NCBI GenBank assembly: GCA_021463465.1
Contig: JAJTYH010000003.1
Location: 275,549-339,548, forward strand
Length of the DNA stretch: 64,000 nt
Reading direction: 5' to 3'
Source of the DNA: a bacterium
GTDB taxonomy: Bacteria > Patescibacteriota > Dojkabacteria > SC72
A program made the position numbers and the translations under genes. Below, one piece after another: positions 19,850 to 52,434 of this stretch; within the stretch, counting starts at the first letter, position 1, and every line of letters begins with the position of its first letter. The notes below the pieces were generated by a model, which was not told where the DNA came from, did not search any database, and was given only the letters and a program-made list of their open reading frames with translations.

Positions 19850-19879
19850 ATTTTTCAGTGTAAATGCTAAACTCATTGC

Positions 19880-28923: not shown

Positions 28924-30267
28924 ATGACACCACGTTCTAAGAGATTACTTTTCCTAGCGTTCTCTTTTTTTCTGCTACTGTGGTACTTTTTACCTGAAAT
29001 CACATTAGTAACTAAAAGTATATTCATAAATAGGGCTAATACTTTAAGTGCTGAAATTAAGCCATTTGTGATGAGTCAAGGAGATAGGTATAAGATTGAA
29101 ATTGAAATTCCAGCTAATTTTAATCTTGACATTTCGCAATCTAAAATTGTACTCACAGGGTCGGAATATATTCTAAAAAGTGATATCGAAGATTACGTAT
29201 CTTTTCTGAGTCGTAATATTGTTCTAAACAGAGTGAGTATGGGACAAATGAATAGTCAGTTGGAAGAGGATAGGCTTAAGCTAGCCTTTGAGGATCAAAA
29301 CACTATTCCAAAAGGGTACTCACTGATTGCAGAGGTATACTTAGTTTCTAAGGATGGAAGGGTTGAATATTACCCCCAAGTTGTCAGCTTTGATCCTGAT
29401 TTTATTGAATACTTTGTATCACGGTTTTCGTATTTAATTCAGTACTACATATGGTTTATAGCCATCTTTGGCTTCACGTTAAGTAATAGCGTTTGGTCGA
29501 CAGTGTACGACTCTAAAAGCAAGAAGCCGCTTTCAGGGGCAATTGTCCGAGTTAGTTCAAAGGGCTCATTGTTACATACTGTAGTTACTGGTGTTTCTGG
29601 GGTAATAAACATGAAATTGAAAAAGGGTAAATACAAAATTCATGTAACAAAGGCTGGATATACTTTCCCAAGTAATCTTAAACCCCTTGCAAATGACGGC
29701 TACTACCAGAATCTCTACTACGGGAGTGACTTCCAAATGGGGTCAACTTCAAATATGAAACTAAACATTCCTCTTGATCAATTAGGTGTTCTGCGAGAAG
29801 TAAAGCTGGGAGATAAAGTAAGCTCTTTTGCTGTGTCAGTGGTTAGTGGATTGAGTCCTTTATTGCTTGTTTTTATCACCATCTCGCAAATTATTGTATG
29901 GCCAAATTATATTGATTCTTGGATTTTCGCTTCTGTAAGTGCGTTACTTTTATCATTAAGGTACATTCTAAATGCAGAAGGGAAAGTTTATCCAGGTAAG
30001 GTGGTAGATTTAAATGGTAAACCAGTCTCAAATGTCCAGATTGTAATTTATAATCGTGAATGGAATAAGGTGGTAGATAGGGTGATTAGTAATAGCGAAG
30101 GTGAGTATGAAGCCCTACTACTAAAAGATAAGTACTACGTTAAAATTGCTAATCCTGATTTAGAATTAGTCGGAGTGGGACCTGAGGGCAAACTTAAGGT
30201 GAAAGGCTTGCTTAAAGGTCAGATTCAATATATTAATGACAGACTGGTAGTCAGACCTAAAAGCTAA
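28924..30267 (+). CDS. Membrane protein with two CarboxypepD_reg/Cna-B-like domains flanking TM segments
   Basis: VYDSKSKKPLSGAIVRVSSKGSLLHTVVTGVSGVINMKLKKGKYKIHVTKAGYTF and VVDLNGKPVSNVQIVIYNR...GEYEALLLKDKYYVKIAN are paralogous to the C-terminus of the 23411-25228 product. Confidence 0.5.
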   Translation: MTPRSKRLLFLAFSFFLLLWYFLPEITLVTKSIFINRANTLSAEIKPFVMSQGDRYKIEIEIPANFNLDISQSKIVLTGSEYILKSDIEDYVSFLSRNIVLNRVSMGQMNSQLEEDRLKLAFEDQNTIPKGYSLIAEVYLVSKDGRVEYYPQVVSFDPDFIEYFVSRFSYLIQYYIWFIAIFGFTLSNSVWSTVYDSKSKKPLSGAIVRVSSKGSLLHTVVTGVSGVINMKLKKGKYKIHVTKAGYTFPSNLKPLANDGYYQNLYYGSDFQMGSTSNMKLNIPLDQLGVLREVKLGDKVSSFAVSVVSGLSPLLLVFITISQIIVWPNYIDSWIFASVSALLLSLRYILNAEGKVYPGKVVDLNGKPVSNVQIVIYNREWNKVVDRVISNSEGEYEALLLKDKYYVKIANPDLELVGVGPEGKLKVKGLLKGQIQYINDRLVVRPKS

Positions 30268-32061: not shown

Positions 32062-33615
32062 ATGGACAAGGCAAAAGCTGAAAATATCAATTCAGAAATC
32101 GCTCAAAACGAGAGCCCTTTAGATGTACAATCAATTATTACAGAGGAAGTTGTACGCGCTTACCCTGAGTCAAACGATATTGCTGATTTGACACAATTCT
32201 ACTCAAAAGTAGGTGAGCTTTTGGAAACAGGGGAAACGATTTTTTCAAAGGATCAAGGTAGAGAGTGGAAGCTTATGAGAGCCATTGTTCATAGCGGTAG
32301 AGAAGCGTTAAGAAACGAATCAACTCACTTTCATGTTGAAAATATGCTAAGAGGGGTTTTTACACCTGAAGAAGTAAATAAGTATTTGGACAATGAAATT
32401 AATCAGCTCGTAACGCCACTAGGAATAATTGTGTTTTCTGAAGATGGCCGTATGGAGTTAAAACCTGGTAATTTCAGAGAATCAGTCGCTTCTAATGATG
32501 GAGTGATATTTAGCATTTTACCTGTTGAAGAAGATTTAGCTCCTAATGTGCAACCAGTATCAATGCGGTCACATGTCGGAGGTCAACCCCCTGTGCGGAG
32601 TGTAGGTAAACAAAGAAGGGACATTAGGTCTTCGCCTGCGGCGGTTCTAAGTTCGTTTGCTTTGATGCTGGGTAGTATCACCAGCTTAAATCAAGCTGTG
32701 AATGCAATCCCAGTTCATCAATCAAGGGGTGAAGCTATTAAAAATGTAATAACAGTCAGTCCATTAGAACAAAAGCCAAGTGATACTGTTAAAATTGTTA
32801 GAAGGTACGAGGGTGGTATAAGAAAAGATTCCAAAGAGGAGATAGATTTAGGTGGTATCAATTTTATGAGTCCAGAACCTTTAACGATAAAGGAAAAGCG
32901 TAATTTAGTACAGCTTCAAGCAGATCTAGAGTGCCCAAGGAATGTAGTACCACTTCCCGCAGGTGTAATTGAGGTACCAAATATGCCTCAAGGAACGTCT
33001 GCCTGTGTTTTCCTTAATCCTATTATTGATGAAGAGGGAGTGATTATTGGGCACGAACCTAATAGTGGCCGGCTCATTGTACATATAGACGATGGTAGCT
33101 CCTTAGATGTTTTCAACGTATGCAAGTCGAGAGTCTTAAACGATGAAGATTTAACAGGCCGTTGTGTTAGACAGTTTGAACTTGGTACAAAGGATAAACT
33201 TATTGCAATGCAATACGCTTCTGGTCCAACGAAAATAGTTTTGAAATTTGAAAATCGAATACTGAAACTGAAAGAAGGTGGATTTTTCGGCGAAGATAAA
33301 GGGGTTGATATTGAGGAGCTTGTCGAAGGGATAAGGACAGTTGGTTCATTAACTGATGAGCAACGAAATCAAATTTTATCTACACCAACACCTATCTTAA
33401 CCCCTAAGCCTACAAAAACACCAAAAGTTTTTGCAACTGAAGTAGATGAATTAGACGATCCATCTCTTTCGGCTGAAGAGAGGGCTGAGATAATTAGGAT
33501 TAGGCAAGAAAAAAAAGATAAAGCCAACAGCTTTTGGCTTGGCACTGCAATTACTATCTTTGCACTTCTTGGGGTAGGTACAGCTGTCTATAACTCTCGT
33601 CACCAAGTAGGGTAA
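32062..33615 (+). CDS. Hypothetical protein with a single C-terminal TM anchor (tail-anchored)
   Basis: 517 aa, soluble and charged, ending in FWLGTAITIFALLGVGTAVY. First gene of the surface-protein locus. Confidence 0.5.
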   Translation: MDKAKAENINSEIAQNESPLDVQSIITEEVVRAYPESNDIADLTQFYSKVGELLETGETIFSKDQGREWKLMRAIVHSGREALRNESTHFHVENMLRGVFTPEEVNKYLDNEINQLVTPLGIIVFSEDGRMELKPGNFRESVASNDGVIFSILPVEEDLAPNVQPVSMRSHVGGQPPVRSVGKQRRDIRSSPAAVLSSFALMLGSITSLNQAVNAIPVHQSRGEAIKNVITVSPLEQKPSDTVKIVRRYEGGIRKDSKEEIDLGGINFMSPEPLTIKEKRNLVQLQADLECPRNVVPLPAGVIEVPNMPQGTSACVFLNPIIDEEGVIIGHEPNSGRLIVHIDDGSSLDVFNVCKSRVLNDEDLTGRCVRQFELGTKDKLIAMQYASGPTKIVLKFENRILKLKEGGFFGEDKGVDIEELVEGIRTVGSLTDEQRNQILSTPTPILTPKPTKTPKVFATEVDELDDPSLSAEERAEIIRIRQEKKDKANSFWLGTAITIFALLGVGTAVYNSRHQVG

Positions 33616-33674: not shown

Positions 33675-36600
33675 ATGATGTCGTGGAGAACAAAAAGAAG
33701 GTTAATGCGTCTATGGGTCGCACTGCAATCTACCTTATCAATGAATGGGTATAATCAACGCCGCAAATTTCCCCAGAATCGCTTAGGTATCCAGTCAAAT
33801 ATACGAGTTGTTGGTAAAACTTTAAAGTTTGGTACAGCTATAGTGCTTGCTATCTTGATTAGCACTTTTCTGTTTAGAATTGTTAGCGCCGAAATCCTTT
33901 TAACTAACGAACGTAATCGACTTGAGTTTAAATCAAAAAGTAACAGTTTCCTTTTTGATCAAATTCCTATTGTGGAAATAAAGGATACAAGATACGTATT
34001 AGGAAGTATTAAGAATGTACTAGGTGCAACTACTCAAAACATAAATGAAGGAACAAGCGTAAAACTTATTGATCCAATTGGAAATCAAGTAAGCGGTGCT
34101 ACTATCTTTAATGTTTTGGGAAATAAATATCAGGTCAAAGTACCTGAAAACGTAGATTTTGTCCCAGGTAAATATCGTCTTTTGATTGACTCTCAAGGTA
34201 GGCATGTTGAGAAGGACTTTACCTGGGGAGTTTTAGCCGTCAATACAAATAAAAGTGTTTTCACACTCGGAGAAAATGTGTTTTTGCAATTGGCCTCATT
34301 AGACGAAAAGGGTCATACACTTTGTAACTCCAATCTAAAATTAAAGATAACCTCTCCAAATGGTGGAGTTGAATACACTGAAGTTCGTAAGAGCGGCGAT
34401 TGTTTTGATGATAACGTTACACTTAAGGCAGATTATTATAGTAACTTCGAACCAACCCAGATAGGATCCTATGTTATTCAATTAACAAATTCAGACTTAG
34501 GCTATACTATTTCAGATTCATTTAGAGTGGAAAAGTCTGTACCATTTATTATTGAGCGGTTTGGTCCAACTCGTATCTTTCCTAAGTCAGATTACAAGAT
34601 GAAGATATTCGTAACAGCGAATACTGATTACGTTGGAAAGGTAGAGGAGCTGGTCCCGAGTTCTTTTAAGGTTAATCAAAAAACAATGGAAGGTCTAAAT
34701 GGTAAGTTGTTAACTTGGGATGTTAACCTTAAAAAAGGTGAATCTAAAAGCGTAGAGTATATTTTTGACGCTCCAGATATCTCACCCGAACTTTATGTAA
34801 TCGGTCCGTTGAGAATAGGGGAATTTTCTGAATATAGAACATGGAAAGTTGCTTCGGATATTGTCGCAACATTGACTGATACTTATTTGCAAACAGGTAC
34901 TTGGGTTGCACCAGATGGTGTGACAAGTGCAAGTGTTGAGGTTTGGGGAGGTGGCGGAGCTGGTGGTGGTGCAACAGGGAACCCAGCTGCGGGGGGAGGA
35001 GGTGCTGGTGGTACATACGCTAAAAAAGCTAACTTTTCGGTTACTGCTGGAAATTCGTATACAACAACAGTAGGAGCAGCTAAAACTGCAACAACGACTA
35101 GCAGCGCTTCTACAAATACTGGAAATGTATCTTGGTTTAGTTCGAATGATACTAATGGAGTAGTAGGTGAAGGTGGTCCTGGAGGCGCTCCAGTTTCAGC
35201 TAATAGTTCAAACGGAAACGGTGGTACTGGTAGTACAGCAAATAGCTTTGGTGATGGAGGGTCAGTTTTTGCAGGTGGAAATGCATCAAATGGTAACTTT
35301 ACATCGGGCACACCGGGAGGTGCTGGTGGAGGAGGAGCAGGGAGTAGTGGAGTTGGTGGTAATGCATCCGCAGGAACTGGAGGAACTGGTTCAAGCACTG
35401 GTGGTGGAAATGGAGCCAATGGTGTAGCTAATAGTACTGCCGGCGCGGCAGGTACAACTTACGGTGGAGGTGGGTCTGGTGGAAAGGCTAATAGTACGAC
35501 TGATAGGGCAGGTGGTACAGGTGCAGCGGGAGCAGTTGCTGTTACATATTCAGCAGATTTCCCAAAAGTGGAAGCTACATCTACTGGCCGTGACTCCACT
35601 GATGCGACAAGCCATACGATTACAATGCCATCTGGAATAAATGTTGGGGAACTACTTATTATCGTATTTTCAGTTGATGGCAATCCTACTGTAACAATTG
35701 GCTCTGGTAACTGGACTAAATTGGGTCAGGCAAGCAATGGTACTACAGTTACTCAAGCCATATTTTATAAAGTAGCTGAGGGTAGCGATACGGCAACTGT
35801 GTCTACATCCTCAACCCAAGAAGCCTCTCATATTGTGTATAGGATTAGTGGTGCTGGTGATACAATTAGCGGTACATCTGCAAATGGTAGTAGTACAAAC
35901 TCAAATCCTCCAAACCACAATCCTGGTACCACCAATAATTACTTATGGATTGCTACTCGAGGTGGTGATGCTCAGGTTGTAGCTTCAGTTCCACCAACGA
36001 ATTTCGCCAATTATAAAAGTATTGGAGCACAAAATTCGACAGGTGCATCATCAAATACCTCAACTAGAGTACATCAGGCATCGAGTTTAGACCCAGGTAC
36101 GTGGACAAGTACGACTGAACAGTGGGTAAGTTATACGATATCCGTTCCGCCTCCAGTAACCTTAAGCGGAGCAGTTTACACAGATGAAATAGGGACAAAT
36201 ATTGGAGCAAATAAAACCGTCGATATACGGATTAATGGTACAGGATCGTATACCGATGAAACAGACAATAGCGGAGCCTGGACTATAAATGTGCCATCAA
36301 TAGCATCAGGGGCTGTAATTACTGCATATCTTGATGACGAAACAGAAGAAGGTACCATCGTTATGGTCTCTGATGGTACATCAAAAAGTGATATCCATAT
36401 AGTACAAAATAGGGTTTTTGTTAGGCATGATACTGGATCTTCCATTACACCTGACAATCTATTTAGTGGAGATGATGGAGATGATGATGTTAAGTACTCT
36501 GTTTCAGCTTCTTCGAATGGCAATTTAACAGTCGACTCTGGATTTGAGTTACATGTTTGGCCTGGTGATACTTTTGATGCAAGTGGTGGTAGCATTACTC

Positions 36601-39600
36601 TTCAGGGTGGAGCAAATCTGCATGTTGACGATACTGCTTCGGTTTACTTAGACACGAGTACAAACACTATTGCTGGTGATGCACTGATTGATGGAAGTGC
36701 TACATTGCGAATCAATGCAAATACGGATATCAATGGAGGTGACATAACAACTAGTGGTACTAATGCTAATGTTACAACCACGTCAGGTTCGCCCACTGTT
36801 ACGATTTCAGGAACAGGGAGTATTGGTGGTGGAACGACTCCGTCTTTTACATTTCATAACTTGAATACATCCGGCACAGGTACGACAACCCTCTCAAATG
36901 CTGTTACGGCAAATAACGATGTTACAGTTGGGAGTGGTACAACGCTTAGAATTAATTCAAATTTGAATGTTAATGGTGGAGATTTAGTAAATACAACTAC
37001 CGGAATTATTGATTACACTTCTGGAACGCCAACAGTCACTCTAACTGGCGCAGGAACTCTTGGTGGTGGGTCTGGTGGAATATCTATTTACAATTTAACT
37101 ACGAATGGGAGTAGTAACAGTACAACGCTTGCAACAAATAATATTGTAATCTCAAATGCTTTAAACGTTGGTACTTCTCATACTTTTGCTATGAGCACAA
37201 ATTCTCTAACAATAGGTTCTACTTCGATAAGTGATTCTGGAGATATTACAATGGCGACTGGGAGTTCTACCTCTCAATCAGCTTCAGGTACAGTAACAAT
37301 TTTAGGGTCTAGTAATGCCGCTGATTGGGCTGGTCCTGGGATATTCACCGCATACAACCTTACAATTGGTAACGGTAGTAATACATTATCTGTGGACAAT
37401 GAAACTGCTGATTTATCAATTGATGTTAATAATGATTTTAATATAACGGCAAATGCCACATTTAGTGCATCATCAAGTTCTTCTTTTACAGTTGGAAATA
37501 GTTATAGTAACTCAGGTACATTTACCGCAAATAGTGGTTTAGTAACGATGGACGCAGGAGATAGTGGGAACACACTCTCAGGATCTATGACCGGCAGTAG
37601 TACTTTCTATAATCTCAGGTTTAATAATAGTGCTGGATCCTGGACGTTTTCAAACAATGCAGATGTAGGTAATGACTTTACAATTACCGATGCAACGGCA
37701 GTAAATGCCCCTTCATCTTTAAGTGTTGCCAGAAATTTTACTGGTAGTAGTGCATTCACCCCGGGCAGTGGAACGGTAACACTTAGTGGCGCAGGTGGTA
37801 CCACACAAACATTGTCGGGCAATACGACTTTTTATAATCTAACTGCTAACGCCAGTTCCTCAAGAATAATTCAATTTACAGCAAGCTCAACAAACACGAT
37901 TAACAATAACTTAACACTAACAGGAACAAATTGTGATGCACTTATGCTTTTAAGGTCTACATCTAAGGGTACTGTTTGGAACATTGATGATAACACTGGT
38001 GGGACAACAACTGTAAGTAATGTTGATGTTCAAGACTCAACTGCAACAGACCAAGCAGTGACTGCGACATCGTCAAATAATTCTGGAAATAATGGCAATT
38101 GGACAATTGCGGCTTCGGCTTGTGAAGGGGGGAGCACCTCAATCACTCCTGTTTCGTATGGATTTCAGAGGAAAACTTTCTTTGATGATACAAATGATGT
38201 TTATTGGATGCTTTACCATGATGGTGATGAGATTGAGGTCAGATACTCAAGTGATACAGGAACAACATGGAATCTTCCTTCAACTTCAAGTAGTGCACAT
38301 CTTGCATATGATACAAGTGACTTTTCAGTATGGAATAAAACAATTAGCTCTACAGAGTATATATTTTTAGCACTAAAAGACGGCTTTGATATAAAAGTAT
38401 TGGTAGGTACTCTTTCCGCCTCAAATGTCACGTGGGATAATGATATCGATACCGTATTTGACGGTACTAGTAGTGGTGATACATTTTCATATCCGTACGT
38501 ATCGTTAGACTCTTCAAACTATGTTTGGGTGGGCGCAAGGTATTATGATGGGACCAATTACGTTTATCGTACATCTGATAGCAACGCTATCGGTAGTACC
38601 GACTTGTCATCGGTAGGTTGGAATCCATTCAAGCAGGTTATCAATAATCAAACAAATTCTAATGTCTATGGGAATATTGTTCCGCTTGCTTCTCAAGCTA
38701 TGTATTTAACAGTTGCAGTTGGAACCGCACTTCGTGGGTGTATTTGGGATGACAGTGCAAATGATTGGGTCGATTCAAATGATGTTAGTTGTACTACAGA
38801 ATCTGAGGAGTACTACTCAACACTAAATAATGGACTTATTTCATATTGGAGGATGGATGAGACCAGCTGGAATGGGACTAGTAATGAAGTTGTTGATTCA
38901 TCTGGTAATGGATTACATGGAGTTAGAGTAGGTGATGCTACGACAGAAAATAGTGGATTTTTAAGGTCAGGAACATTTGATGGATCTGGTGACTATATTG
39001 ACGCAGGCTCGCCAGCATCTCTTGATGATTTACCTAACAGTGATTTTACAGTCTCATTTTGGCATAAGTATAGTGAGACAGGTTCAGCAAATTTCCCAGT
39101 TTTTGTCGGTAAACGTAATTACTTGGGAAGTTATGGGTGGAATATAAGCACAGAAAAAACAAATAAGTATGTTAAATTAAACGTTTTGTATCCGGGTGGT
39201 ACTGATGCTCAATTTACAACCGATGACGATGCTTTTGCCGATGGTGTATGGTCACAGGTTACAGTCACATGGGATGCTTCAACGAAAACAGGTGAAATCT
39301 TTATCAATGGAATACAACCAAGTATGTATAACGAGGTTTCAGGCAGCGGGACCTACACCTCAGATGCATCTGAAATACTAAGGGTAGGACATGATAATGT
39401 GGGATCCCCATATAAAGGGAATTTAGATGAATTCAGAATATATGATAGGGTTTTGAGTACAAGCGAAATTTCGCAACTATATCAATATTATCCAGGCCCA
39501 ATTAATATTGATAATTCTTCTGACTTTGGTTCAATGCCCGGAGCGGGGAGGCAGATAATCAGGGCTGGTGATGGTGATATATACGCTTTTGTAAATGATG

Positions 39601-42600
39601 GTGGGAATTGTGAGATGTGGAAATCCACTAATAGTTTTACATGGACGCAGCAACAGCCAGGAACAACAATTACATGCAGTAACAGTAATGCAATCTCTAC
39701 TTCAATTGACGGAAATGCAGATATACATGTAGCCTATTTTGATGGTACTTCTTCATTAAAGTATCGACTTTATGATACTGCGACAGATAACTGGGACGGT
39801 GGTGTTGGGGAAGAGAATATCGTTACGGGTGACACTTATAGTTCTGTAGTAGTGTCAATTGACAGTAATAATATCCCTCATATTGCAGTTAGAACTACAA
39901 CAGGGGCCATAATCGGATACAACAATAGAATCGGTGGTACATGGAATGGTTCTTTAACTACGGTTGAGTCTACTTCAGTCACAGATTATTTAGATTTAAC
40001 TATAAATGAAAATAACTATCCTGCAATCTCATATATTACGAGCACATCGCTTGTTGCAAAAGAAGGGAATGCAAACGATGCTTCGTCATTTAACAGCTCA
40101 GGGACTATCGATTCAACTGTGAATACAACAGCTGGTCAAGCTGGCATTTCAATTGCGGTAGACAGTGCAAATGGCGATGAATGGGTAGCGTATATTGACT
40201 CGGGTGGGTCAGTAGCTCTCGCAAAACATAGCGGAGGAACATGGGGATCGGGATGGAGCACAGTTACAACTAAATCAGATATAGGCTCAGAACCGAGCAT
40301 AGCTCTTGCGTGGTCAAACGGGGTATATGTGTTCTATCAGGATGACAGCACTGATCAGAAAATTGTGTACGATTTCTACAATAGTAGTGGGAGTAGTCCT
40401 GCCTGGGTGGGGGAAAAAGTCCTTCTAACCCCAAGTAGTGGAGTTGATTATAAAGATGTAAAGGTGAGGTGGTCTTATTTAAATAACCCTTCTTATTCAA
40501 ACTATTCTTTTGAGTATTTAATTAGTGATAATACGGACTTATATTTCGGACAACTTTCTCTCCCAGATTGGTTAACTAACTGGAGTAAAAGGGTCCCGAT
40601 TGTTATCTCCAACTCAAACATTGATGCTGATTTGACTGCTTTTCCATTAAACTTGACCGTAACTTCAACTTCAGGGACCGCTGACGATGATATGACCCTA
40701 CTTTTTGATTCGCTTGGTGCAAATAGCAAAAAGATTGCAATTACAAAATCTGATGGTACTACAGAGTTATACGCTGAAGTACAACGCTGGGACACTACTA
40801 ATGAAATTGGACAACTGTGGGTTTCAAAAGAAGATTTCGTGCTTTCTGGCTCAACGGATACCACCTTGTACTTATATTATGATAGTAATCACGCTGATAA
40901 TACAAACTATGTTGGGGATACAGGTTCCACAATCGCCGGTAAGGTGTGGGAACCTGGATATAAAGTTGTGGCGCATTTGGATGAAGCAGATGATACATCG
41001 AGGGTCGATGCATCAGGAAATGGGAATACAATGTCAGAAAGTGCTTCTGATACTGTAACCCAATATACCTCTGGGACACGAATTGGTGCGGATTTTGAGA
41101 GGGGTGATACAGAGTTCCTTGAAGTATCTGATAACTCAAGTCTTGAAATGAGTAATTTTACCTTTACTGCCTGGCTTAATGTTGAAAGCACTCAGAGCTC
41201 AGGAGGTGCGTATCAGGCTATTTTCACAAGGGGTGATGGAGGTAATTGGGCATACGGTTGGGCGACTGAATCGGATTCTATCGGAACGTTAATAGATGCT
41301 GATGGGTTTGCGGGGGGAGGAGCTTTGCCAGTGAGCGCTTCTTCTACATTTAATACAGGTGAATGGAATCTATTTCATGTCACTTATGATGGTTCGAATA
41401 TACGGCTGTATAAAAACGGTGTAGAGCTAACTTCTGGAGATTATCCATACGCTACAACTATTTCTATAAATCAAAATAGTACATCAAGTCTAAGATTAGG
41501 AAATTGGCAATCGCAATCTGGTTACTTTGATGGGATTATGGATGAAGTTATGCTTAATAGTGGAGCTAAATCTTCCGCATGGCTAAAGACAGATTATCAC
41601 TCAATGACTGACAATCTTGCGAACTGGGGGACTTCTGAAAGTGTTGCTTTTAGCACCTCCTCCCAAGATACAATTGATACTATCCCAGCTAATATAGATG
41701 ATAATTTTTCAGCAACAGTCGATTCTAGTAATAATGTCCACATTGCATATGTAGACGATGAAAGTACCGATCAAATTTCACATCGAAAGTGGACTAACTC
41801 TACTCAGACATGGGGTAGTGCAACACTTGTTCCAAGTGGAGCAAGTAATACTCATACGAATATAAGTATTGCAATAAACACATCGGCGGCAGATCTGAAT
41901 GATTTGTATGTTTCCTGGATTGATTCTTCAAATAACCACATATATTACCGACAGTATGATAGTTCGGCCACAAGTTGGTTAACTGTTCAGGATTGGAAAA
42001 CAACCGGTACTAATGTCTATCCGACTCTAAACTTCAGTGGTAGTGGAAGAGTATTTGCCCTTTGGAATCAAGGTACTTCTTCTCCTACTACTATTGATTG
42101 GGGTTCAATTTTAGCCCCGTCAGGAGGGAGTGCACCAACAGTTACAAGTGTAAGCTTAAATGGAGGGTCAACGATAACATTAACTGAAGGAACAACAACA
42201 AATATTTCAGTTGTCGGGACAGTTACTGACTTAGATGGTCATGCAAATATATCTACTGCAACAGCAAAGATTTATAGATCAGGTGTATCAGGTGCTCAAT
42301 CATGTTCAAATAGTGATAATAATTGTTACACAGTTGCTAGCTGTTCACTTAGCTCATGTGCTGGAAATACTTGTACAGCAACATGCACTGCACCATTAGC
42401 ATTTCATGCTGATGCAACTGATACTGGGAGTACATATGCATCAGAGTACTGGAGAGGTTGGATTGAAGCTACAGATGATGATTCAAATACAGGTTCTGGG
42501 TTTAGTAGCGTAGGGTCACCTGACCTTGCAAGTACTGCTGCTATGGATATAAGCTCTTCACTTGCTTTTGGCACGCTTTTAGCTGGTGATGACACCGGTG

Positions 42601-42932
42601 CATCTCCTCAGAATACTACTGTCACAAATACTGGAAATACAACACTTGATTTTGAAGTTTCAGGAGATGATTTATGTACTAACTATCCGACCTGTAGTGG
42701 GTCGCAAATAGGTGTTGGGTATCAGGAGTATAAGATTACAACTTTTACATACGGTGCAGGGACTGGATTAACTACTTCCCCAGTGACAGTTGATTTGAAT
42801 CTGAACAAATCTACTGCCGTCCCGTCTAATTCAACATCCTCCTTTTACTGGGGCATAGGAATTCCATCTCCAAAAGAGACTGGGGCGTATACAGGTGCTA
42901 ATACAGTAACGGCGTTAAATGGTGGTTCTTAG
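33675..42932 (+). CDS. Giant (3085 aa) multi-domain cell-surface protein with an N-terminal anchor, a Gly-rich module, beta-helix-like repeats, a BNR motif, 2 LamG-like domains, a DUF2341-like segment and a Cys-patterned C-terminal module
   Basis: A single uninterrupted ORF with an N-terminal TM or signal anchor. The Gly-rich block VEVWGGGGAGGG...GGGGAGGTY is at about 34900-35560. Degenerate repeats of about 65 aa (…TVT(I/L)(S/T)G.G.(I/L)GGG…FYNLT…) run from about 36780 to 38000. An Asp-box SSDTGTTW is near 38250. LamG-like jelly rolls lie at about 38835-39495 and 40960-41600. The DUF2341-like segment WLTNWSKRVPIVISNS...LYLYYDS is at 40560-40910. Confidence 0.8.
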   Translation: MMSWRTKRRLMRLWVALQSTLSMNGYNQRRKFPQNRLGIQSNIRVVGKTLKFGTAIVLAILISTFLFRIVSAEILLTNERNRLEFKSKSNSFLFDQIPIVEIKDTRYVLGSIKNVLGATTQNINEGTSVKLIDPIGNQVSGATIFNVLGNKYQVKVPENVDFVPGKYRLLIDSQGRHVEKDFTWGVLAVNTNKSVFTLGENVFLQLASLDEKGHTLCNSNLKLKITSPNGGVEYTEVRKSGDCFDDNVTLKADYYSNFEPTQIGSYVIQLTNSDLGYTISDSFRVEKSVPFIIERFGPTRIFPKSDYKMKIFVTANTDYVGKVEELVPSSFKVNQKTMEGLNGKLLTWDVNLKKGESKSVEYIFDAPDISPELYVIGPLRIGEFSEYRTWKVASDIVATLTDTYLQTGTWVAPDGVTSASVEVWGGGGAGGGATGNPAAGGGGAGGTYAKKANFSVTAGNSYTTTVGAAKTATTTSSASTNTGNVSWFSSNDTNGVVGEGGPGGAPVSANSSNGNGGTGSTANSFGDGGSVFAGGNASNGNFTSGTPGGAGGGGAGSSGVGGNASAGTGGTGSSTGGGNGANGVANSTAGAAGTTYGGGGSGGKANSTTDRAGGTGAAGAVAVTYSADFPKVEATSTGRDSTDATSHTITMPSGINVGELLIIVFSVDGNPTVTIGSGNWTKLGQASNGTTVTQAIFYKVAEGSDTATVSTSSTQEASHIVYRISGAGDTISGTSANGSSTNSNPPNHNPGTTNNYLWIATRGGDAQVVASVPPTNFANYKSIGAQNSTGASSNTSTRVHQASSLDPGTWTSTTEQWVSYTISVPPPVTLSGAVYTDEIGTNIGANKTVDIRINGTGSYTDETDNSGAWTINVPSIASGAVITAYLDDETEEGTIVMVSDGTSKSDIHIVQNRVFVRHDTGSSITPDNLFSGDDGDDDVKYSVSASSNGNLTVDSGFELHVWPGDTFDASGGSITLQGGANLHVDDTASVYLDTSTNTIAGDALIDGSATLRINANTDINGGDITTSGTNANVTTTSGSPTVTISGTGSIGGGTTPSFTFHNLNTSGTGTTTLSNAVTANNDVTVGSGTTLRINSNLNVNGGDLVNTTTGIIDYTSGTPTVTLTGAGTLGGGSGGISIYNLTTNGSSNSTTLATNNIVISNALNVGTSHTFAMSTNSLTIGSTSISDSGDITMATGSSTSQSASGTVTILGSSNAADWAGPGIFTAYNLTIGNGSNTLSVDNETADLSIDVNNDFNITANATFSASSSSSFTVGNSYSNSGTFTANSGLVTMDAGDSGNTLSGSMTGSSTFYNLRFNNSAGSWTFSNNADVGNDFTITDATAVNAPSSLSVARNFTGSSAFTPGSGTVTLSGAGGTTQTLSGNTTFYNLTANASSSRIIQFTASSTNTINNNLTLTGTNCDALMLLRSTSKGTVWNIDDNTGGTTTVSNVDVQDSTATDQAVTATSSNNSGNNGNWTIAASACEGGSTSITPVSYGFQRKTFFDDTNDVYWMLYHDGDEIEVRYSSDTGTTWNLPSTSSSAHLAYDTSDFSVWNKTISSTEYIFLALKDGFDIKVLVGTLSASNVTWDNDIDTVFDGTSSGDTFSYPYVSLDSSNYVWVGARYYDGTNYVYRTSDSNAIGSTDLSSVGWNPFKQVINNQTNSNVYGNIVPLASQAMYLTVAVGTALRGCIWDDSANDWVDSNDVSCTTESEEYYSTLNNGLISYWRMDETSWNGTSNEVVDSSGNGLHGVRVGDATTENSGFLRSGTFDGSGDYIDAGSPASLDDLPNSDFTVSFWHKYSETGSANFPVFVGKRNYLGSYGWNISTEKTNKYVKLNVLYPGGTDAQFTTDDDAFADGVWSQVTVTWDASTKTGEIFINGIQPSMYNEVSGSGTYTSDASEILRVGHDNVGSPYKGNLDEFRIYDRVLSTSEISQLYQYYPGPINIDNSSDFGSMPGAGRQIIRAGDGDIYAFVNDGGNCEMWKSTNSFTWTQQQPGTTITCSNSNAISTSIDGNADIHVAYFDGTSSLKYRLYDTATDNWDGGVGEENIVTGDTYSSVVVSIDSNNIPHIAVRTTTGAIIGYNNRIGGTWNGSLTTVESTSVTDYLDLTINENNYPAISYITSTSLVAKEGNANDASSFNSSGTIDSTVNTTAGQAGISIAVDSANGDEWVAYIDSGGSVALAKHSGGTWGSGWSTVTTKSDIGSEPSIALAWSNGVYVFYQDDSTDQKIVYDFYNSSGSSPAWVGEKVLLTPSSGVDYKDVKVRWSYLNNPSYSNYSFEYLISDNTDLYFGQLSLPDWLTNWSKRVPIVISNSNIDADLTAFPLNLTVTSTSGTADDDMTLLFDSLGANSKKIAITKSDGTTELYAEVQRWDTTNEIGQLWVSKEDFVLSGSTDTTLYLYYDSNHADNTNYVGDTGSTIAGKVWEPGYKVVAHLDEADDTSRVDASGNGNTMSESASDTVTQYTSGTRIGADFERGDTEFLEVSDNSSLEMSNFTFTAWLNVESTQSSGGAYQAIFTRGDGGNWAYGWATESDSIGTLIDADGFAGGGALPVSASSTFNTGEWNLFHVTYDGSNIRLYKNGVELTSGDYPYATTISINQNSTSSLRLGNWQSQSGYFDGIMDEVMLNSGAKSSAWLKTDYHSMTDNLANWGTSESVAFSTSSQDTIDTIPANIDDNFSATVDSSNNVHIAYVDDESTDQISHRKWTNSTQTWGSATLVPSGASNTHTNISIAINTSAADLNDLYVSWIDSSNNHIYYRQYDSSATSWLTVQDWKTTGTNVYPTLNFSGSGRVFALWNQGTSSPTTIDWGSILAPSGGSAPTVTSVSLNGGSTITLTEGTTTNISVVGTVTDLDGHANISTATAKIYRSGVSGAQSCSNSDNNCYTVASCSLSSCAGNTCTATCTAPLAFHADATDTGSTYASEYWRGWIEATDDDSNTGSGFSSVGSPDLASTAAMDISSSLAFGTLLAGDDTGASPQNTTVTNTGNTTLDFEVSGDDLCTNYPTCSGSQIGVGYQEYKITTFTYGAGTGLTTSPVTVDLNLNKSTAVPSNSTSSFYWGIGIPSPKETGAYTGANTVTALNGGS

Positions 42933-42986: not shown

Positions 42987-44678
42987 ATGAAGCAGTTTCG
43001 TGTGGCAACAACCAAGTTTCTCCTTGTTATTGGGCTAACTGCTTTACTTATTCCAAACCTCTTCATTATATGGAATGTTATTGCAGATAGTGTTACGACA
43101 TCAGTTACTGTTGGGAATACGTCTCCTAGTTTTACGGTAGGACCAGCTGAAAATCCCGAGAGTTCGAATACCACCCCTACAAACGTTGGTGCTAATACGA
43201 CTTTCCAGGCTACTGCGACTGATAGCAATTCGGAAAATTATTACTTGATTTTATGCTCTACAAACTCAGTTTCTGCAACCAATGGCGGTGCTCCGACTTG
43301 TGGTGCGACTCAGTTTTGTGTTAGTTCCTCAACCGCAAGCGGAAGCCAGGCTTCATGCAATCGTTCTGCACAGGCTGGCGATGCTGAAAATGTTGCCTGG
43401 TACGCATTTGTTTGTGACGGAAATGCTTCAGCAGCAGCGTGTTCAAGCTCCAGTCAAGGGAGTGGTGCTACAGGATCACCCTTTGCTGTTAACCATGTTC
43501 CAGGCTTCTCTTCGGTAAGTAACGATGGGCCTAAAAATCCTGGCCAAACCGTTACATGGTCAACTACAGCTTCAGACACTGACTCAGCAGGTTCTGCTGA
43601 TACAGTTAAGCTAATTGTTTGTAAGACAACTGGACTTTCGGGAGATGCCTGCGATGGAGGTGGAAGTGATACATGGTGCTCAAGTTCTTTTGTTTCGTCA
43701 GATCCAACATGTGGATATGCCGTTCCCACGCCAACTGCTGATGGGGCAAATAATGCATATGTTTATGTAGTTGATAATCATAATTTTGGAGCTTCCTCAG
43801 GTAACCAAGGTAGTAATAGCTCCTTTACTGTAAACAATATTGCTCCAGTTGTATCTGGGGTAACATTTAATGGTGGTAGTGCCATAACTTTAACTGAAGG
43901 TACTACTACAAATATAACCATTGGCGCCACAATTACTGATAATAATAGCTGTACTGGTGGTGAAATTGCTACAACATATGGTTATGCATATAGGTCTGGG
44001 GTTGGATTTTCTGGGTGTGACACTTCTGGAGAATCTAATAATAACCATTGTTATGCGGAGGTCACATGTACTGTAACTGGTGGTACCTGTTCTGGCGCTT
44101 CGGATGCATCAGCTGATTATACCTGCACAGTAGCAATGCAGCACTATGCTGACCCAACGGATGTTGCGACCATATACCCTACGGAGAATTGGTTGGCATC
44201 GTTTAGGGCAATTGATGATGATAGTGCTGCTCATACAGTTGAAGTCTCGTCAGGCGTTGAAATGAACTCACTTACTGCTCTGAATGTCACTGGTTCAGTT
44301 AACTACGGAACATTAGATGTAAACCAAAGCAATGACCCACTTGATAAGATTACGACAGTTACACCTACAGGAAATGTTGGACTCGATGAAGAACTCTCGG
44401 GCGCAAATATGTGTACGGACTATCCAACATGTTCAGGTGGAATAATTGCTGTAGGTCAACAAAAGTATGCACTAGCAACATCAACTGCCTATGCAAGCGG
44501 TACAGCCTTGACAACTTCACCCGTAGAGCAAGAGTTAAATGTTCCGAAAGCTACATCCGGTTCCCCCACAACAAAAAATACATGGTGGGGTATATTAATC
44601 CCGCTTGGAACTACTCCGGGATCATATAGTGGAAGCAATACAGTTACTGCAGTCAAAGGTGAAACGGGAGGTTGGTGA
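42987..44678 (+). CDS. Secreted Cys-rich protein whose C-terminal roughly 280 aa are paralogous to the C-terminal module of the giant protein
   Basis: Signal peptide MKQFRVATTKFLLVIGLTALLIP. Residues from about 285 (nt 43838-44675) align at roughly 40-45% identity by eye with giant-protein residues at nt 42110-42929. Both include LNGGS.ITLTEGTTTNI and C(T/M)(N/D)YPTCSG. Confidence 0.7.
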   Translation: MKQFRVATTKFLLVIGLTALLIPNLFIIWNVIADSVTTSVTVGNTSPSFTVGPAENPESSNTTPTNVGANTTFQATATDSNSENYYLILCSTNSVSATNGGAPTCGATQFCVSSSTASGSQASCNRSAQAGDAENVAWYAFVCDGNASAAACSSSSQGSGATGSPFAVNHVPGFSSVSNDGPKNPGQTVTWSTTASDTDSAGSADTVKLIVCKTTGLSGDACDGGGSDTWCSSSFVSSDPTCGYAVPTPTADGANNAYVYVVDNHNFGASSGNQGSNSSFTVNNIAPVVSGVTFNGGSAITLTEGTTTNITIGATITDNNSCTGGEIATTYGYAYRSGVGFSGCDTSGESNNNHCYAEVTCTVTGGTCSGASDASADYTCTVAMQHYADPTDVATIYPTENWLASFRAIDDDSAAHTVEVSSGVEMNSLTALNVTGSVNYGTLDVNQSNDPLDKITTVTPTGNVGLDEELSGANMCTDYPTCSGGIIAVGQQKYALATSTAYASGTALTTSPVEQELNVPKATSGSPTTKNTWWGILIPLGTTPGSYSGSNTVTAVKGETGGW

Positions 44679-44698
44679 AGTTTATTTAAAGAAATTGT

Positions 44699-46105
44699 AT
44701 GATGTTTAGTATATTTATAGAAAGAATGAAAACTTTAGGAAAAACGATTACGACAATTGCATGCTTCTTATTAATGATGTCCCCGTCATTAGCGGGTTTT
44801 GGTGTCTCACCTACTAATATTTATAATGAATACTTAAAGCCCGGAGCACATTTTGAGAAGGTGGTGACACTTTCAAGATCTGATCCGTTTGAAGATTTAG
44901 ATATTGTTATCGAACCCAGTTTAGGAGAGATTAACTCTTGGTTTAGATTTGATCCAGGTCTTACCTTTGTTTTCCCTAAAGGCGAGAGTAGGAAAACTTT
45001 TAAAATAATCGTTGATGTACCACAAAGTGCTTCATATCGGGGATATGAAGGAGTTATTCGTGTAAAAGCTCTAGCTCGTGGTCAAGCTGTACAGGGGGTT
45101 TCAATTGTCAAGGGTGCAAGGTTAGATGTAGATTTGGTAACTACAGAGGTTTCAATCAGTGAATTGCAGATTAAATCACTAAAAATGCTTGATGCCAATG
45201 AGGGAGACCCTTTGAAGTTGGAAATTCTTGCAGAAAATCTTGGAAACGTTGCGGTATCACCTGATGCGAAGGTTGCAATAAAAAATCTACAGATGGAAGA
45301 TTTGGAGGAGCATGTTGACAATGATCTTGAATTTGTGCAACCAAACGAGAGTAAAACTTTATATGCTGAATTTAAATCATCACTTCCTCAAGGCGAGTAC
45401 TTTGTGGATGCATTTGTTCTAGTAGATGGTTCAGTGGTAAGGAAAGAAAGATTAGTTTTTAGAATTAATGCACCAGGAGAGAAAAGTGCAGATACTAGTG
45501 GTGGGTTAAGTACTGCTTTTGCAAACGGGATTTCTTTGTTGAGAGACAATGCTTCAATGATTGGGGTTTGCCTGCTATTTGCTATTGTTGCGTACTTCTT
45601 GATGAGCAAGCTGTGGAAGCAGGAGAGTATGGAAGATAAAAAGAATGAGTTATGGGCACCACTACTTGGCGTCAGAGCTAGTTCAAGAATTATTGTTTCC
45701 ATCCTAATTGGAATTTTATCAGCCGGAATATTCTGGTGGTTTAGTTCACACCCAATTCAGTTTGAAAAAGAGAGTAAAAAGAGCGACATTTCAGTACAGC
45801 CTAGTGGTGGAATCCCTTTGGAAGTTGTTGTATCAGAAGGTACAGATGTTAAAGGTGTGAAAGAGAAGATTGATAAATCTGATCCACTTGTGGTAAGTGA
45901 TAGGGATAAGGACGGAAAGGCGAAATATCCGATTTACGAAAGCCCAGATCTTAACTCAAATATTGTCTACTATGCTCTAGAAGATGAAAAGTTGGATGTA
46001 GTGGAGGAAAATGCTGATTGGTATAAGGTTGAAGTCGGGGATGGCGATATGGGGTGGCTTGAGAAATCAAAAGTAAAATCTAGTGTATCTCAAGAGATTC
46101 AATAG
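44699..46105 (+). CDS. Secreted or membrane protein with an N-terminal beta domain, two TM helices and a C-terminal SH3b-like domain
   Basis: The signal peptide is followed by TM helices near residues 280 and 330. The C-terminal DWYKVEVGDGDMGWLEKSKV is a bacterial SH3-like motif. Confidence 0.45.
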   Translation: MMFSIFIERMKTLGKTITTIACFLLMMSPSLAGFGVSPTNIYNEYLKPGAHFEKVVTLSRSDPFEDLDIVIEPSLGEINSWFRFDPGLTFVFPKGESRKTFKIIVDVPQSASYRGYEGVIRVKALARGQAVQGVSIVKGARLDVDLVTTEVSISELQIKSLKMLDANEGDPLKLEILAENLGNVAVSPDAKVAIKNLQMEDLEEHVDNDLEFVQPNESKTLYAEFKSSLPQGEYFVDAFVLVDGSVVRKERLVFRINAPGEKSADTSGGLSTAFANGISLLRDNASMIGVCLLFAIVAYFLMSKLWKQESMEDKKNELWAPLLGVRASSRIIVSILIGILSAGIFWWFSSHPIQFEKESKKSDISVQPSGGIPLEVVVSEGTDVKGVKEKIDKSDPLVVSDRDKDGKAKYPIYESPDLNSNIVYYALEDEKLDVVEENADWYKVEVGDGDMGWLEKSKVKSSVSQEIQ

Positions 46106-52102: not shown

Positions 52103-52267
52103 AAACGGGACTCTCACCGAGCAGTGAATTTTCAATAAGGCGAAATAAACAAGCCATTAAGGGATTCTACCTTCGAACCTAGGGTTATCCAAATTCATCA
52201 AAATTTAGCCTCTTTTCATCCACTAGGCTATTTATTTGAAATAACTGAATTTCAAATCAAAATAGCT

Positions 52268-52351: not shown

Positions 52352-52434
52352 AAAATGAGAATGAGACAAATGAGACACATAAAAAAGAATGATTGAAAAA
52401 TCTCAATTGATCAAAATAGGAATAGTTGTTTACT

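What the first reader, a model, noticed from the sequence alone, without database searches (positions are those of the whole stretch)
33675..42932. 3085-aa giant surface protein with an unusual domain mix: Gly-rich module, beta-helix repeats, BNR, DUF2341-like and LamG x2
Seen in sequence: one uninterrupted 9.2-kb ORF with an N-terminal membrane anchor. The Gly-rich block VEVWGGGGAGGG…GGGGAGGTY is at about 34900-35560; its antisense strand gives spurious Pro-rich ORFs. Degenerate tandem repeats of about 65 aa with a FYNLT core run from about 36780 to 38000. An Asp-box SSDTGTTW is present. There are two concanavalin/LamG-like jelly-roll segments and one DUF2341-like segment. Established knowledge: DUF2341 plus LamG is a recurring pairing in large secreted proteins, sometimes linked to MotA/TolQ/ExbB-type systems. 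Gly-rich VxVWGxGGGG modules occur in phage tail-fibre-like proteins. Inference: this may be a giant adhesin or glycan-binding fibre, perhaps mediating attachment to a host cell or substrate in a reduced-genome organism. The domain combination is not one I can assign to a described family.
Basis: partly seen in the sequence, partly recalled or inferred. Interest (0 to 1): 0.7.

Follow-up and report, generated by a model that had tools for sequence, protein, structure and literature searches.

The report
Giant modular surface protein, candidate-phyla bacterium
This is a real 3085-residue cell-surface protein of a tiny, host-dependent (Patescibacteria, probably Dojkabacteria) bacterium, built from a rigid beta-helix stalk and several sugar-binding-type modules, and it is the large member of a conserved three-gene surface cassette that has not been described and resembles the WxL adhesion clusters of lactic acid bacteria.

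Summary

The organism is a Patescibacterium, most likely Dojkabacteria/WS6. Giant membrane-anchored surface proteins with lectin-like domains are already a recognised feature of such bacteria, so the protein class itself is not new.

Three things are new:
- The last ~270 aa form a tandem Ig-like 'C-module' that always sits at the extreme C-terminus.
- The next gene (563 aa) carries the same module, at 43% identity.
- The third gene (468 aa) encodes a signal peptide, two predicted Ig-like domains, transmembrane segments and an SH3b domain.

A C-module gene directly followed by this membrane-protein gene recurs in 15 loci. Eight of them have a long (>1000-aa) C-module protein upstream. This matches the logic of Firmicute WxL clusters, but without detectable sequence similarity.

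Best reading: a host- or glycan-binding adhesin displayed by this cassette. Function is inferred, not shown.

The parts
33675..42932 (+). Giant gene, 3085 aa (class A member of the cassette)
   Evidence: identical copies found
33675..33890 (+). Basic cytoplasmic N-tail (aa 1-51; 12 K/R, no D/E) plus one hydrophobic anchor or signal segment (aa 52-72, ends VSA|E)
   Evidence: In P0003-P0005 the tail is about 200 aa and K/R-rich, which favours a true membrane anchor.
33972..34874 (+). N-module, aa ~100-400. Predicted Ig-like, with a sub-threshold MG2 match at aa 190-285. Shared by 68 of 119 giant homologues at variable positions.
34893..35549 (+). Gly_rich_2 domain (PF21722), aa 407-625
   Evidence: 45.5 bits; PHROG hits
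35592..36164 (+). Domain C, aa ~640-830. No Pfam family. A widespread module with 4040 cluster representatives.
   Evidence: The AlphaFold2 model is only weak here, pLDDT 52-81.
36156..38144 (+). Small beta-sandwich followed by a right-handed parallel beta-helix, aa ~828-1490. It carries five degenerate 75-88-aa units with an F/Y-x-N-L core.
38157..38849 (+). Beta-propeller 1, aa ~1495-1725, with the single Asp-box SSDTGTTW at aa 1525 and a conserved FQRK motif
38979..39473 (+). Laminin_G_3 domain 1, aa 1769-1933
   Evidence: 84.5 bits
39492..40574 (+). Propeller-like region 2, aa ~1940-2300, about seven blade-like repeats. Inferred from sequence only and not modelled.
40728..40991 (+). DUF2341-like segment, aa 2352-2439 (borderline)
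41112..41579 (+). Laminin_G_3 domain 2, aa 2480-2635
   Evidence: 65.5 bits
41652..42119 (+). 'prop3' segment, aa ~2660-2815, three blade-like repeats. It lies just upstream of the C-module in five of the eight other long cassette proteins compared, and was not detected in P0003-P0005.
42117..42929 (+). C-module, aa 2815-3085. Two tandem Ig-like beta-sandwiches, Cys-rich, always at the extreme C-terminus.
   Evidence: (pLDDT 92.3)
42987..44678 (+). Class B partner, 563 aa. Signal peptide, conserved mature N-terminus DSVTTSVTVGN, a Cys-rich N-terminal half, and the same C-module (43% identical to the giant's).
44699..46105 (+). Class C partner, 468 aa. Signal peptide ending A|GFGVSP, two predicted Ig-like domains, two transmembrane segments (aa 286-305 and 328-348), and a C-terminal SH3b domain.

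Best explanation
The gene encodes a giant, Sec-exported protein of a Patescibacterium, most likely Dojkabacteria/WS6.

**Proposed layout**
- A positively charged N-tail and one transmembrane segment hold it in the membrane.
- An acidic, Ser/Thr/Gly/Asn-rich ectodomain of about 3000 aa projects outward.
- A beta-helix of about 650 aa acts as a rigid spacer.
- Strung along it are ligand-binding-type modules: an MG2-like Ig module, Gly_rich_2, 'domain C', two or three beta-propeller-like segments, two LamG jelly rolls and a DUF2341-like segment.
- These most plausibly bind glycans or surface structures of a host cell or substrate.

**Cassette**
The protein ends in a conserved tandem-Ig 'C-module'. 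It is the large member of a three-gene cassette:
- class A: anchor, variable insert, C-module;
- class B: signal peptide, conserved N-terminal strand, C-module;
- class C: two predicted Ig-like domains, transmembrane segment(s) and, in this lineage, a peptidoglycan-binding-type SH3b domain.

I infer that the two C-modules dock on the class C protein at the cell wall, as WxL domains do on WxLIP in Firmicutes. That would form a surface platform presenting the variable giant region.

**Shown:** gene integrity, domain and fold assignments, cassette conservation.
**Inferred:** topology, glycan or host binding, physical interaction of the three proteins.
For: **Gene and organism**
- The gene is intact and conserved.
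- Named homologues are all Patescibacteria.
- The nearest class B relatives are candidate division WS6 / Dojkabacteria genomes at up to 68% identity.

**Topology**
- The N-tail carries 12 K/R and no D/E, there is one transmembrane segment, and the ectodomain has 299 D+E against 132 K+R.
- Conserved Cys residues lie in the C-module.

**Domains and folds**
- Gly_rich_2, Laminin_G_3 twice, and borderline DUF2341.
- Propeller: Foldseek hits to GH43/GH32/GH93, sialidases and lectin propellers. BNR_4 matches one homologue at E 1e-4.
- Domain C is fused elsewhere to a type IV pilin-like N-terminus, to a T9SS sorting domain, and to M23 plus Gly_rich_2.

**Cassette**
- The giant's C-module is 43% identical to the C-terminal half of the next gene's product.
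- A long C-module gene, then a ~550-aa class B gene, then a ~455-aa SH3b class C gene occurs in L002, L008, L009 and L010. L013 has the same order, with a class C protein of at most 487 aa.
- Smaller versions occur in L005-L007.
- A C-module gene is directly followed by a class C gene in 15 loci.
- Among long cassette proteins the N-module and C-module stay constant while the middle is shuffled.

**Literature**
- Giant membrane proteins and LamG/concanavalin proteins are already proposed to be host-attachment factors in these bacteria (PMC8080830; PMC11310336).
- WxL cluster architecture is described in PMC10599100.
Against: - There is no experimental or expression evidence, and no ligand is known.
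- Structural neighbours of the beta-helix and propeller include as many enzymes as adhesins, so a catalytic role is not excluded.
- Pfam WxL, DUF916 and DUF3324 models do not match any cassette protein even at E<=10.
- If the giant is anchored by its N-terminus, docking of its C-terminus at the wall would tether both ends. That is unusual.
- Propeller region 2, prop3 and the N-module were not modelled, and domain C was modelled only at low confidence.
Confidence: 0.55

Rival explanations
1. It is a giant polysaccharide-degrading enzyme, or combined enzyme and binder. On this reading the beta-helix and/or propellers are catalytic (depolymerase, lyase, epimerase, glycosidase or sialidase-like) and attack host cell-wall or capsule polymers to obtain nutrients. 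The LamG domains would act as carbohydrate-binding modules.
For: - Foldseek hits to the propeller are mostly GH43/GH32/GH93/GH145, PL42 and sialidases.
- An FQRK motif is conserved across all propeller-1 homologues about 25 residues before the Asp-box. This recalls the position of the sialidase FRIP motif (the comparison is from my own knowledge).
- Laminin_G_3 belongs to the 'concanavalin A-like lectin/glucanase' superfamily.
Against: - Identities are only 9-18%.
- No catalytic Pfam or NCBIfam family matches.
- There is only one Asp-box.
- Non-enzymatic adhesin beta-helices score as high or higher (Vag8, UpaB, SRRP).
- Catalytic residues were not mapped.
Confidence: 0.2
2. The cassette builds a fibre by donor-strand complementation, that is, a pilus not of type IV. 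Class B subunits would polymerise through their conserved orphan N-terminal strand (D-[TS]-x-[ST]-T-[ST]-V-T-V-G-N). The giant class A protein has the C-module but no such strand, so it would be the adhesin subunit. The class C protein, with two Ig-like domains, would act as a chaperone-like or base-anchoring factor.
For: - Class B proteins have a cleavable signal peptide followed by a strongly conserved mature N-terminal beta-strand motif, seen in more than 15 sequences.
- The same string recurs in the 563-aa protein as what looks like the last strand of the domain preceding its C-module. In minimal class B proteins it is therefore an orphan strand.
- Class A forms lack it.
- A two-Ig-domain partner is reminiscent of PapD-type chaperones (my own knowledge).
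Against: - The C-module folds as two complete beta-sandwiches at pLDDT 92 without a partner strand.
- There is no similarity to known pilins, TasA or chaperones.
- Class A proteins seem to remain N-terminally membrane-anchored, unlike tip adhesins.
- No multimer modelling was possible.
Confidence: 0.15
3. It is a structural envelope or S-layer-like coat protein, with no specific ligand. It would simply form the fibrous, acidic and possibly glycosylated outer coat of the cell.
For: - The ectodomain is large, acidic and rich in Ser/Thr/Asn.
- A glycosyltransferase cluster lies nearby at 13.5-22.8 kb.
- The fibrous surface of Vampirococcus has been attributed to giant proteins (PMC8080830).
Against: - No SLH or other S-layer domains were detected.
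- The middle region shuffles rapidly between relatives, which fits diversifying recognition functions better than a lattice-forming protein.
- Lectin-type modules dominate.
Confidence: 0.08
4. It is a prophage-derived tail-fibre-like protein, or a pseudogene or assembly artefact.
For: PHROG matches of the Gly-rich module include a 'tail' category family.
Against: - No tblastn match in 50,697 phage genomes for the Gly-rich module or domain C.
- Neighbouring genes are housekeeping: SecA, RecO, M20 peptidase, glycosyltransferases.
- The ORF is intact, recovered identically in two assemblies, and has full-length homologues.
Confidence: 0.02

Closest known systems
WxL surface-protein clusters of Lactobacillales/Bacillales: small WxL protein, large WxL protein and WxLIP (DUF916-DUF3324-TM). 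Source: PMC10599100.
   Same: The cassette logic is the same.
- A small secreted protein that is little more than the shared C-terminal domain.
- A large protein with that domain at its C-terminus and binding domains N-terminal to it.
- A conserved protein with two tandem Ig-like domains (predicted here, not modelled) and a transmembrane helix.
   Different: - No detectable sequence similarity: Pfam WxL, DUF916 and DUF3324 do not match at E<=10.
- The C-module is about 270 aa of tandem Ig-like folds, not a 160-190-aa WxL domain.
- Only one conserved W-G-[I/L] motif is present.
- The large member is up to 3700 aa and has an N-terminal transmembrane anchor.
- The class C protein carries SH3b in this lineage.
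- The host phylum is Patescibacteria.
Giant membrane or surface proteins of candidate-phyla-radiation bacteria, e.g. Vampirococcus lugosii (PMC8080830), and LamG/concanavalin proteins proposed for attachment (PMC11310336)
   Same: Very large (1.4-4 k aa and above), membrane-localised, multi-domain proteins with adhesion-type domains in reduced-genome episymbionts. More than 100 giant homologues share modules with this protein.
   Different: I found no description of the C-module, the class B and class C partners, or this particular architecture in the literature I could search.
Beta-helical adhesins: autotransporter passengers Vag8, UpaB and pertactin; TpsA proteins HMW1 and EtpA; Lactobacillus reuteri SRRP
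   Different: - There is no beta-barrel translocator, TPS domain or LPXTG motif.
- Identity is 10-14%.
- The helix is one module among many, and the same module recurs, often in several copies, in about 50 giant Patescibacteria proteins.
MshQ-type proteins and Bacteroidota T9SS 'glycine-rich domain-containing' proteins
   Same: They share the Gly_rich_2 + LamG (+/- DUF2341) combination (P0085, P0087, P0092 and others).
   Different: - Matches cover only the Gly-rich and LamG parts (3-9% of the query).
- No T9SS sorting domain is present.
- No pilus genes were found among the neighbouring genes scanned.
SPEARE giant proteins of Nanohaloarchaeota (DPANN), as described in PMC9563170
   Same: Giant multi-domain surface proteins of an ultra-small episymbiont, thought to mediate host interaction.
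   Different: They are archaeal, with a different domain content (protease and nuclease domains according to my own knowledge). No homology was tested or seen.

Membership tests
Laminin_G_3 (PF13385, concanavalin A-like lectin/glucanase) | HMM score above the Pfam gathering threshold (27.6 bits) | tested here: met
   Two domains: aa 1769-1933 at 84.5 bits and aa 2480-2635 at 65.5 bits.
Gly_rich_2 (PF21722) | HMM score above the gathering threshold (24.3 bits), full-length match | tested here: met
   45.5 bits, profile positions 5-225 of 226, aa 407-625.
DUF2341 (PF10102) | HMM score above the gathering threshold (23.4 bits) | tested here: inconclusive
   24.0 bits for the isolated 126-aa segment, 20.6 bits in a 326-aa context, and not reported for the whole protein. 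The closest homologue P0002 carries precomputed DUF2341 hits.
BNR / sialidase-type beta-propeller | Several Asp-boxes (S-x-D-x-G-x-T-W) and a match to BNR-family HMMs | tested here: not met
   There is one Asp-box only and no Pfam hit for the window segments. Among 10 related segments, BNR_4 matched once (E 1e-4) and BNR twice (E 0.29).
BNR / sialidase-type beta-propeller | Beta-propeller fold | tested here: inconclusive
   The AlphaFold2 segment aa ~1499-1699 has pLDDT 81-91. Foldseek hits to 5- to 7-bladed GH, sialidase and lectin propellers have E 5e-5 to 1e-2 and TM (target-normalised) 0.2-0.43.
Right-handed parallel beta-helix (pectate-lyase-like / autotransporter-passenger fold) | Beta-solenoid fold with strong structural similarity to known members | tested here: met
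Alpha-2-macroglobulin MG2 domain (PF01835) | HMM score above the gathering threshold (32.8 bits) | tested here: not met
   19.0-24.2 bits at aa 190-285. Several homologues have precomputed MG2 hits, so an MG2-like Ig fold is likely but membership is unproven.
WxL cluster (WxL + WxLIP) | WxL domain: 160-190 aa, two W-x-L motifs, Pfam WxL match | tested here: not met
   No WxL hit at E<=10. The C-module is about 270 aa. W2926 is invariant but is not part of a W-x-L motif. W3059 forms W-G-[I 30 / L 7].
WxL cluster (WxL + WxLIP) | Cluster of a small and a large protein sharing the C-terminal domain, plus a protein with two Ig-like domains and a transmembrane helix | tested here: met
   Seen in the window and in L002, L005-L015, L017 and L018. 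The two Ig-like domains of class C are predicted from sequence, not modelled. The architecture is as described in PMC10599100.
WxL cluster (WxL + WxLIP) | Peptidoglycan binding of the shared domain, and its interaction with the membrane protein | not testable with these tools
   This needs multimer modelling or biochemistry. Only the SH3b domain of the class C protein hints at wall binding.
   None was found in Pfam or NCBIfam for the whole protein or for 10 segments.
Donor-strand-complemented pili (chaperone-usher, TasA, archaeal threads) | Subunit with an N-terminal donor strand that completes the fold of the next subunit | not testable with these tools
   A conserved orphan N-terminal strand is present in class B proteins. 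Monomer AlphaFold2 of the C-module is complete on its own. No multimer prediction was available.
MshQ / pilus- or MotA/TolQ/ExbB-associated DUF2341-LamG proteins | Genomic linkage to pilus biogenesis or MotA/TolQ/ExbB genes | tested here: not met
   No such genes were found among the 30 neighbouring genes scanned, spanning 13.5-59 kb of the window. The regions 1-13.5 kb and 59-64 kb were not scanned.

The most novel reading that the evidence does not exclude
The giant protein is the cargo-bearing subunit of a previously undescribed three-component surface system found in several Patescibacteria lineages. The components are an anchor-type C-module protein, a secreted C-module protein with a conserved N-terminal strand, and a membrane protein with two Ig-like domains. 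The three would physically assemble by strand insertion or complementation. The result would be either a WxL/WxLIP-like wall platform or a donor-strand fibre that is not a type IV pilus. The lineage could then swap enormous host-recognition regions on a constant docking module.
Probability: 0.35. Interest if true: 0.72.

Novelty: new variant of a known kind. Interest (0 to 1): 0.55.

Why it matters
Patescibacteria make up a large share of bacterial diversity and live attached to other cells. Apart from type IV pili, the molecules that mediate attachment are mostly unknown.

This locus offers a concrete, testable candidate. A constant docking module, with two conserved partner genes, carries a highly variable giant region full of glycan-binding-type folds.

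If the three proteins do assemble, this would be a surface-display system parallel to the WxL clusters of Firmicutes. The C-module would then become a simple sequence handle for finding host-recognition proteins across Patescibacteria genomes.

If they do not, the protein is just one more giant modular surface protein of these bacteria.

Tried and rejected
- **PDB sequence search** of the whole protein gave nothing relevant.
- **NCBIfam** gave nothing for the giant or for the 517-aa and 563-aa neighbours; the 468-aa protein had only sub-threshold matches.
- **Phage origin.** tblastn of the Gly-rich module and of domain C against 50,697 phage genomes found no match. PHROGs gave nothing for domain C, the N-module, the C-module or the partner proteins.
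- **WxL, DUF916, DUF3324, TasA or PapD homology** of the cassette proteins: no Pfam hit even at E<=10.
- **Self-BLAST** for internal repeats returned nothing, and Tandem Repeats Finder found no DNA-level repeats. The repeats are protein-level and degenerate.
The single 563-aa protein was used instead.
- **The N-module as an N-terminal signature of the family** was rejected, because it occurs at positions 50-2500 and sometimes twice.
- **The upstream 517-aa gene as a cassette member** was rejected, because it is not conserved in L002, L004 or L009.
- **Literature searches** for DUF2341+LamG, Gly_rich_2, Patescibacteria+WxL and Dojkabacteria surface proteins found nothing specific.
Full report
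**1. Observation**

The window carries one uninterrupted ORF at 33675-42932 (+), 3085 aa. At about 40% GC a stop-free run of this length cannot arise by chance.

The identical protein is found on a second public contig (L001). It is also in NCBI nr as 'LamG domain-containing protein [bacterium]', with a start 22 codons downstream (P0001).

The N-terminus has 51 residues with 12 K/R and no acidic residue, followed by a single hydrophobic segment at aa 52-72. The remaining ~3000 aa are acidic (299 D+E against 132 K+R), and 45% of the whole protein is Ser/Thr/Gly/Asn.

The antisense ORF 34883-35419 translates to a Pro-rich string.

**2. Domain anatomy**

- **Pfam matches.** Gly_rich_2 covers aa 407-625 (45.5 bits). 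Laminin_G_3 covers aa 1769-1933 (84.5 bits) and aa 2480-2635 (65.5 bits). DUF2341 is borderline at aa 2352-2439: 24.0 bits alone, 20.6 bits in context, cutoff 23.4. MG2 is sub-threshold at aa 190-285.
- **No matches.** NCBIfam and a PDB sequence search gave nothing.
- **FYNLT repeats.** These are five degenerate units. [F/I/A][H/Y]NL cores lie at aa 1060, 1138, 1226, 1311 and 1386, so the spacing is 75-88 aa, not 65.
- **Propeller 1.** The following segment, aa ~1499-1699 (pLDDT 81-91), matches 5- to 7-bladed propellers of GH43/GH32/GH93/GH145, sialidases and lectins, but only weakly (Foldseek E 5e-5 to 1e-2). It contains the only Asp-box, SSDTGTTW at aa 1525. BNR-family HMMs do not reach threshold.
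- **Other propeller-like regions.** Two further regions with blade-like repeats lie at aa ~1940-2300 and ~2660-2815. They are inferred from sequence only.
- **Domain C.** Aa ~640-830 has no Pfam family and was modelled only weakly. It is nevertheless a large family, with 4040 cluster representatives at E<=1e-3. Elsewhere it is fused to a type IV pilin-like N-terminus (P0202), to a T9SS sorting domain (P0197), and directly after M23 plus Gly_rich_2 (P0199). It also occurs as stand-alone 220-240-aa proteins that begin 'MxFPxV' and have no signal peptide.

**3. Relatives and organism**

The whole-protein search returned 120 proteins.
- Four are collinear over about half the length: P0002 at 50% identity and P0003-P0005 at 33-34%.
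- More than 100 further giant proteins (1.7-5.4 k aa) share single modules.
- Every source-named giant homologue that shares the N-module or helix module is a Patescibacterium (Paceibacterota, Parcubacteria, Falkowbacteria, Andersenbacteria, Peribacteria). The other named matches share only the LamG or Gly_rich_2 part (WWE3, Bacteroidota T9SS proteins, MshQ-like proteins).

Module sharing is uneven.
- The N-module (aa ~100-400) is in 68 of 119 homologues, at positions 50-2500 and sometimes twice.
- The sandwich-plus-helix module (aa 828-~1480) recurs in about 50 proteins, often in several copies.
- The Gly-rich module matches 24 of the 119 and domain C only two.

So the 'unusual domain mix' is one draw from a shuffled module pool typical of these bacteria.

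Relatives of the downstream 563-aa gene in species-representative genomes are candidate division WS6 / Dojkabacteria, at up to 68% identity. The window is therefore most likely from that lineage. Flanking genes are ordinary chromosomal genes: SecA, RecO, glycosyltransferases, M20 peptidase and a DsbD-like protein.

**4.

The last ~270 aa of the giant are 43% identical (BLASTP E 7e-41) to the C-terminal half of the next gene's product, 42987-44678, 563 aa. This C-module lies at the extreme C-terminus in P0002-P0005, P0007, P0010 and P0070.

A dedicated search found 44 mostly small proteins (250-475 aa). The complete ones are essentially a signal peptide plus the C-module; several others are fragments from short contigs.

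The third gene (44699-46105, 468 aa) encodes:
- a signal peptide ending A|GFGVSP;
- two predicted Ig-like domains;
- two transmembrane segments;
- an SH3b domain.

The cassette recurs widely.
- A long C-module gene, then a ~550-aa class B gene, then a ~455-aa class C gene occurs in L002, L008, L009 and L010. L013 has the same order, with a class C protein of at most 487 aa.
- L004 shows the first two genes before the contig ends.
- Reduced versions occur in L005-L007: two consecutive C-module proteins followed by a ~315-336-aa GFGVSP protein with one transmembrane segment and no SH3b.
- Across 15 loci a C-module gene is directly followed by the class C gene.
- In four loci the order is class B, class C, then a second class B gene.

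N-termini define two C-module classes.
- Class A, including the giant, has an uncleaved-looking hydrophobic anchor. In P0003-P0005 it is preceded by about 200 K/R-rich residues.
- Class B has a cleavable signal peptide followed by a strongly conserved mature N-terminus, D-[TS]-x-[ST]-T-[ST]-V-T-V-G-N-[SA]-[AT]-P.

Among long class A proteins the N-module and the C-module are constant while the middle is reshuffled. prop3 accompanies the C-module in five of the eight other proteins compared and was not detected in P0003-P0005.

**5. Mechanism**

The best-supported reading is a membrane-anchored, extended surface protein. Its beta-helix acts as a spacer, and its lectin-type modules (LamG twice, propellers, Gly_rich_2, domain C, DUF2341-like) bind host or substrate glycans.

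It would be presented as part of a three-protein surface complex in which the shared C-modules dock on the class C protein at the wall.

The closest described system in logic is the WxL cluster of Lactobacillales and Bacillales (PMC10599100). That cluster has:
[quoted passage not shown] - WxLIP, with two Ig-like domains plus a transmembrane helix. A WxLIP hairpin is predicted to complete the WxL sandwich.

Membership fails, however. No WxL, DUF916 or DUF3324 HMM matches, and only one conserved W-G-[I/L] motif is present. It works like a WxL cluster at the level of gene architecture. It is not a member by sequence.

**6. Rivals**

- **Enzyme.** An enzymatic role cannot be excluded from folds alone, because depolymerases, an epimerase, glycosidases and sialidases are among the structural neighbours.
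- **Donor-strand fibre.** The orphan N-terminal strand of class B suggests this, but it is untested, and the C-module models as a complete fold.
- **S-layer-like coat.** This fits the composition but not the rapid module shuffling.
- **Phage origin or pseudogene.** Both are effectively excluded.

**7. Novelty and verdict**

Giant membrane proteins and LamG/concanavalin proteins are already proposed attachment factors in these bacteria (PMC8080830; PMC11310336; see also PMC9793634). The protein as a kind is therefore known, and the record is already annotated, uninformatively.

The C-module, its class A and class B dichotomy and the conserved three-gene cassette were not found in any literature I could search. 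They constitute a new variant with a clear experimental path.

Interest is 0.55. All functional statements are inferences from folds and gene context.

Noticed in passing
window 42987-46105; loci L002, L005-L015, L017, L018: A conserved cassette: C-module protein(s) directly followed by a 'GFGVSP' membrane protein with two predicted Ig-like domains. In L011, L012, L014 and L015 the order is class B, class C, then a second class B gene.
   Followed up: yes
P0137, P0139, P0140, P0142, P0145, P0150-P0152, P0156; window 563-aa protein aa 34-47: Class B C-module proteins share a strikingly conserved mature N-terminus (A|D-T-S-S-T-T-V-T-V-G-N-S-A-P) right after the predicted signal-peptide cleavage site. 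In the minimal forms it looks like an orphan beta-strand.
   Followed up: partly
giant aa 640-830 (window 35592-36164); P0196-P0342: Domain C is a large unannotated family, with 4040 cluster representatives. Many members start with it at residue 4 ('MxFPxV...') and lack a signal peptide. One (P0202) has a type IV pilin-like 'KGFTLIEV' N-terminus, and P0205 continues into a 13-residue-repeat fibre.
   Followed up: partly
window 32062-33615: A 517-aa protein with no Pfam or NCBIfam match and a single C-terminal hydrophobic segment (aa 490-510), immediately upstream of the giant. It is not conserved next to the homologous giants.
   Followed up: partly
window 23411-25228 and 28924-30267: Two further predicted surface proteins: one of 605 aa with Big_1, fn3 and CarboxypepD_reg, and one of 447 aa with CarboxypepD_reg and SpaA-like domains. 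They lie upstream on the same strand.
   Followed up: no
window 13540-22792: A cluster of three GT4 glycosyltransferases and a Bac_transf sugar transferase, interrupted by SecA (16330-19275). It may be envelope or glycoprotein glycosylation machinery near a Ser/Thr/Asn-rich giant protein.
   Followed up: no
window 26617-28038: A fusion protein combining HMA, DsbD_2 and cupredoxin domains. It may be relevant to disulfide formation in the Cys-rich C-modules.
   Followed up: no
window 52000-56000: GC content drops to about 0.31 and GC skew changes sign. The region holds three minus-strand genes: a zinc-ribbon protein, a 373-aa protein with no match, and an M48 peptidase. It may be an island or an inversion.
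   Followed up: no
window 56798-57538 and 57803-59026: A GGDEF diguanylate cyclase, and a Sua5/YrdC-TsaE fusion protein, in a reduced genome.
   Followed up: no
L008 15474-21392 (minus strand): Near another cassette, two more giant genes lie on the opposite strand. One is 1949 aa with DUF2341 and three Laminin_G_3 domains. The other is 3985 aa with a Peptidase_S74 (tail-fibre chaperone-type) domain.
   Followed up: no
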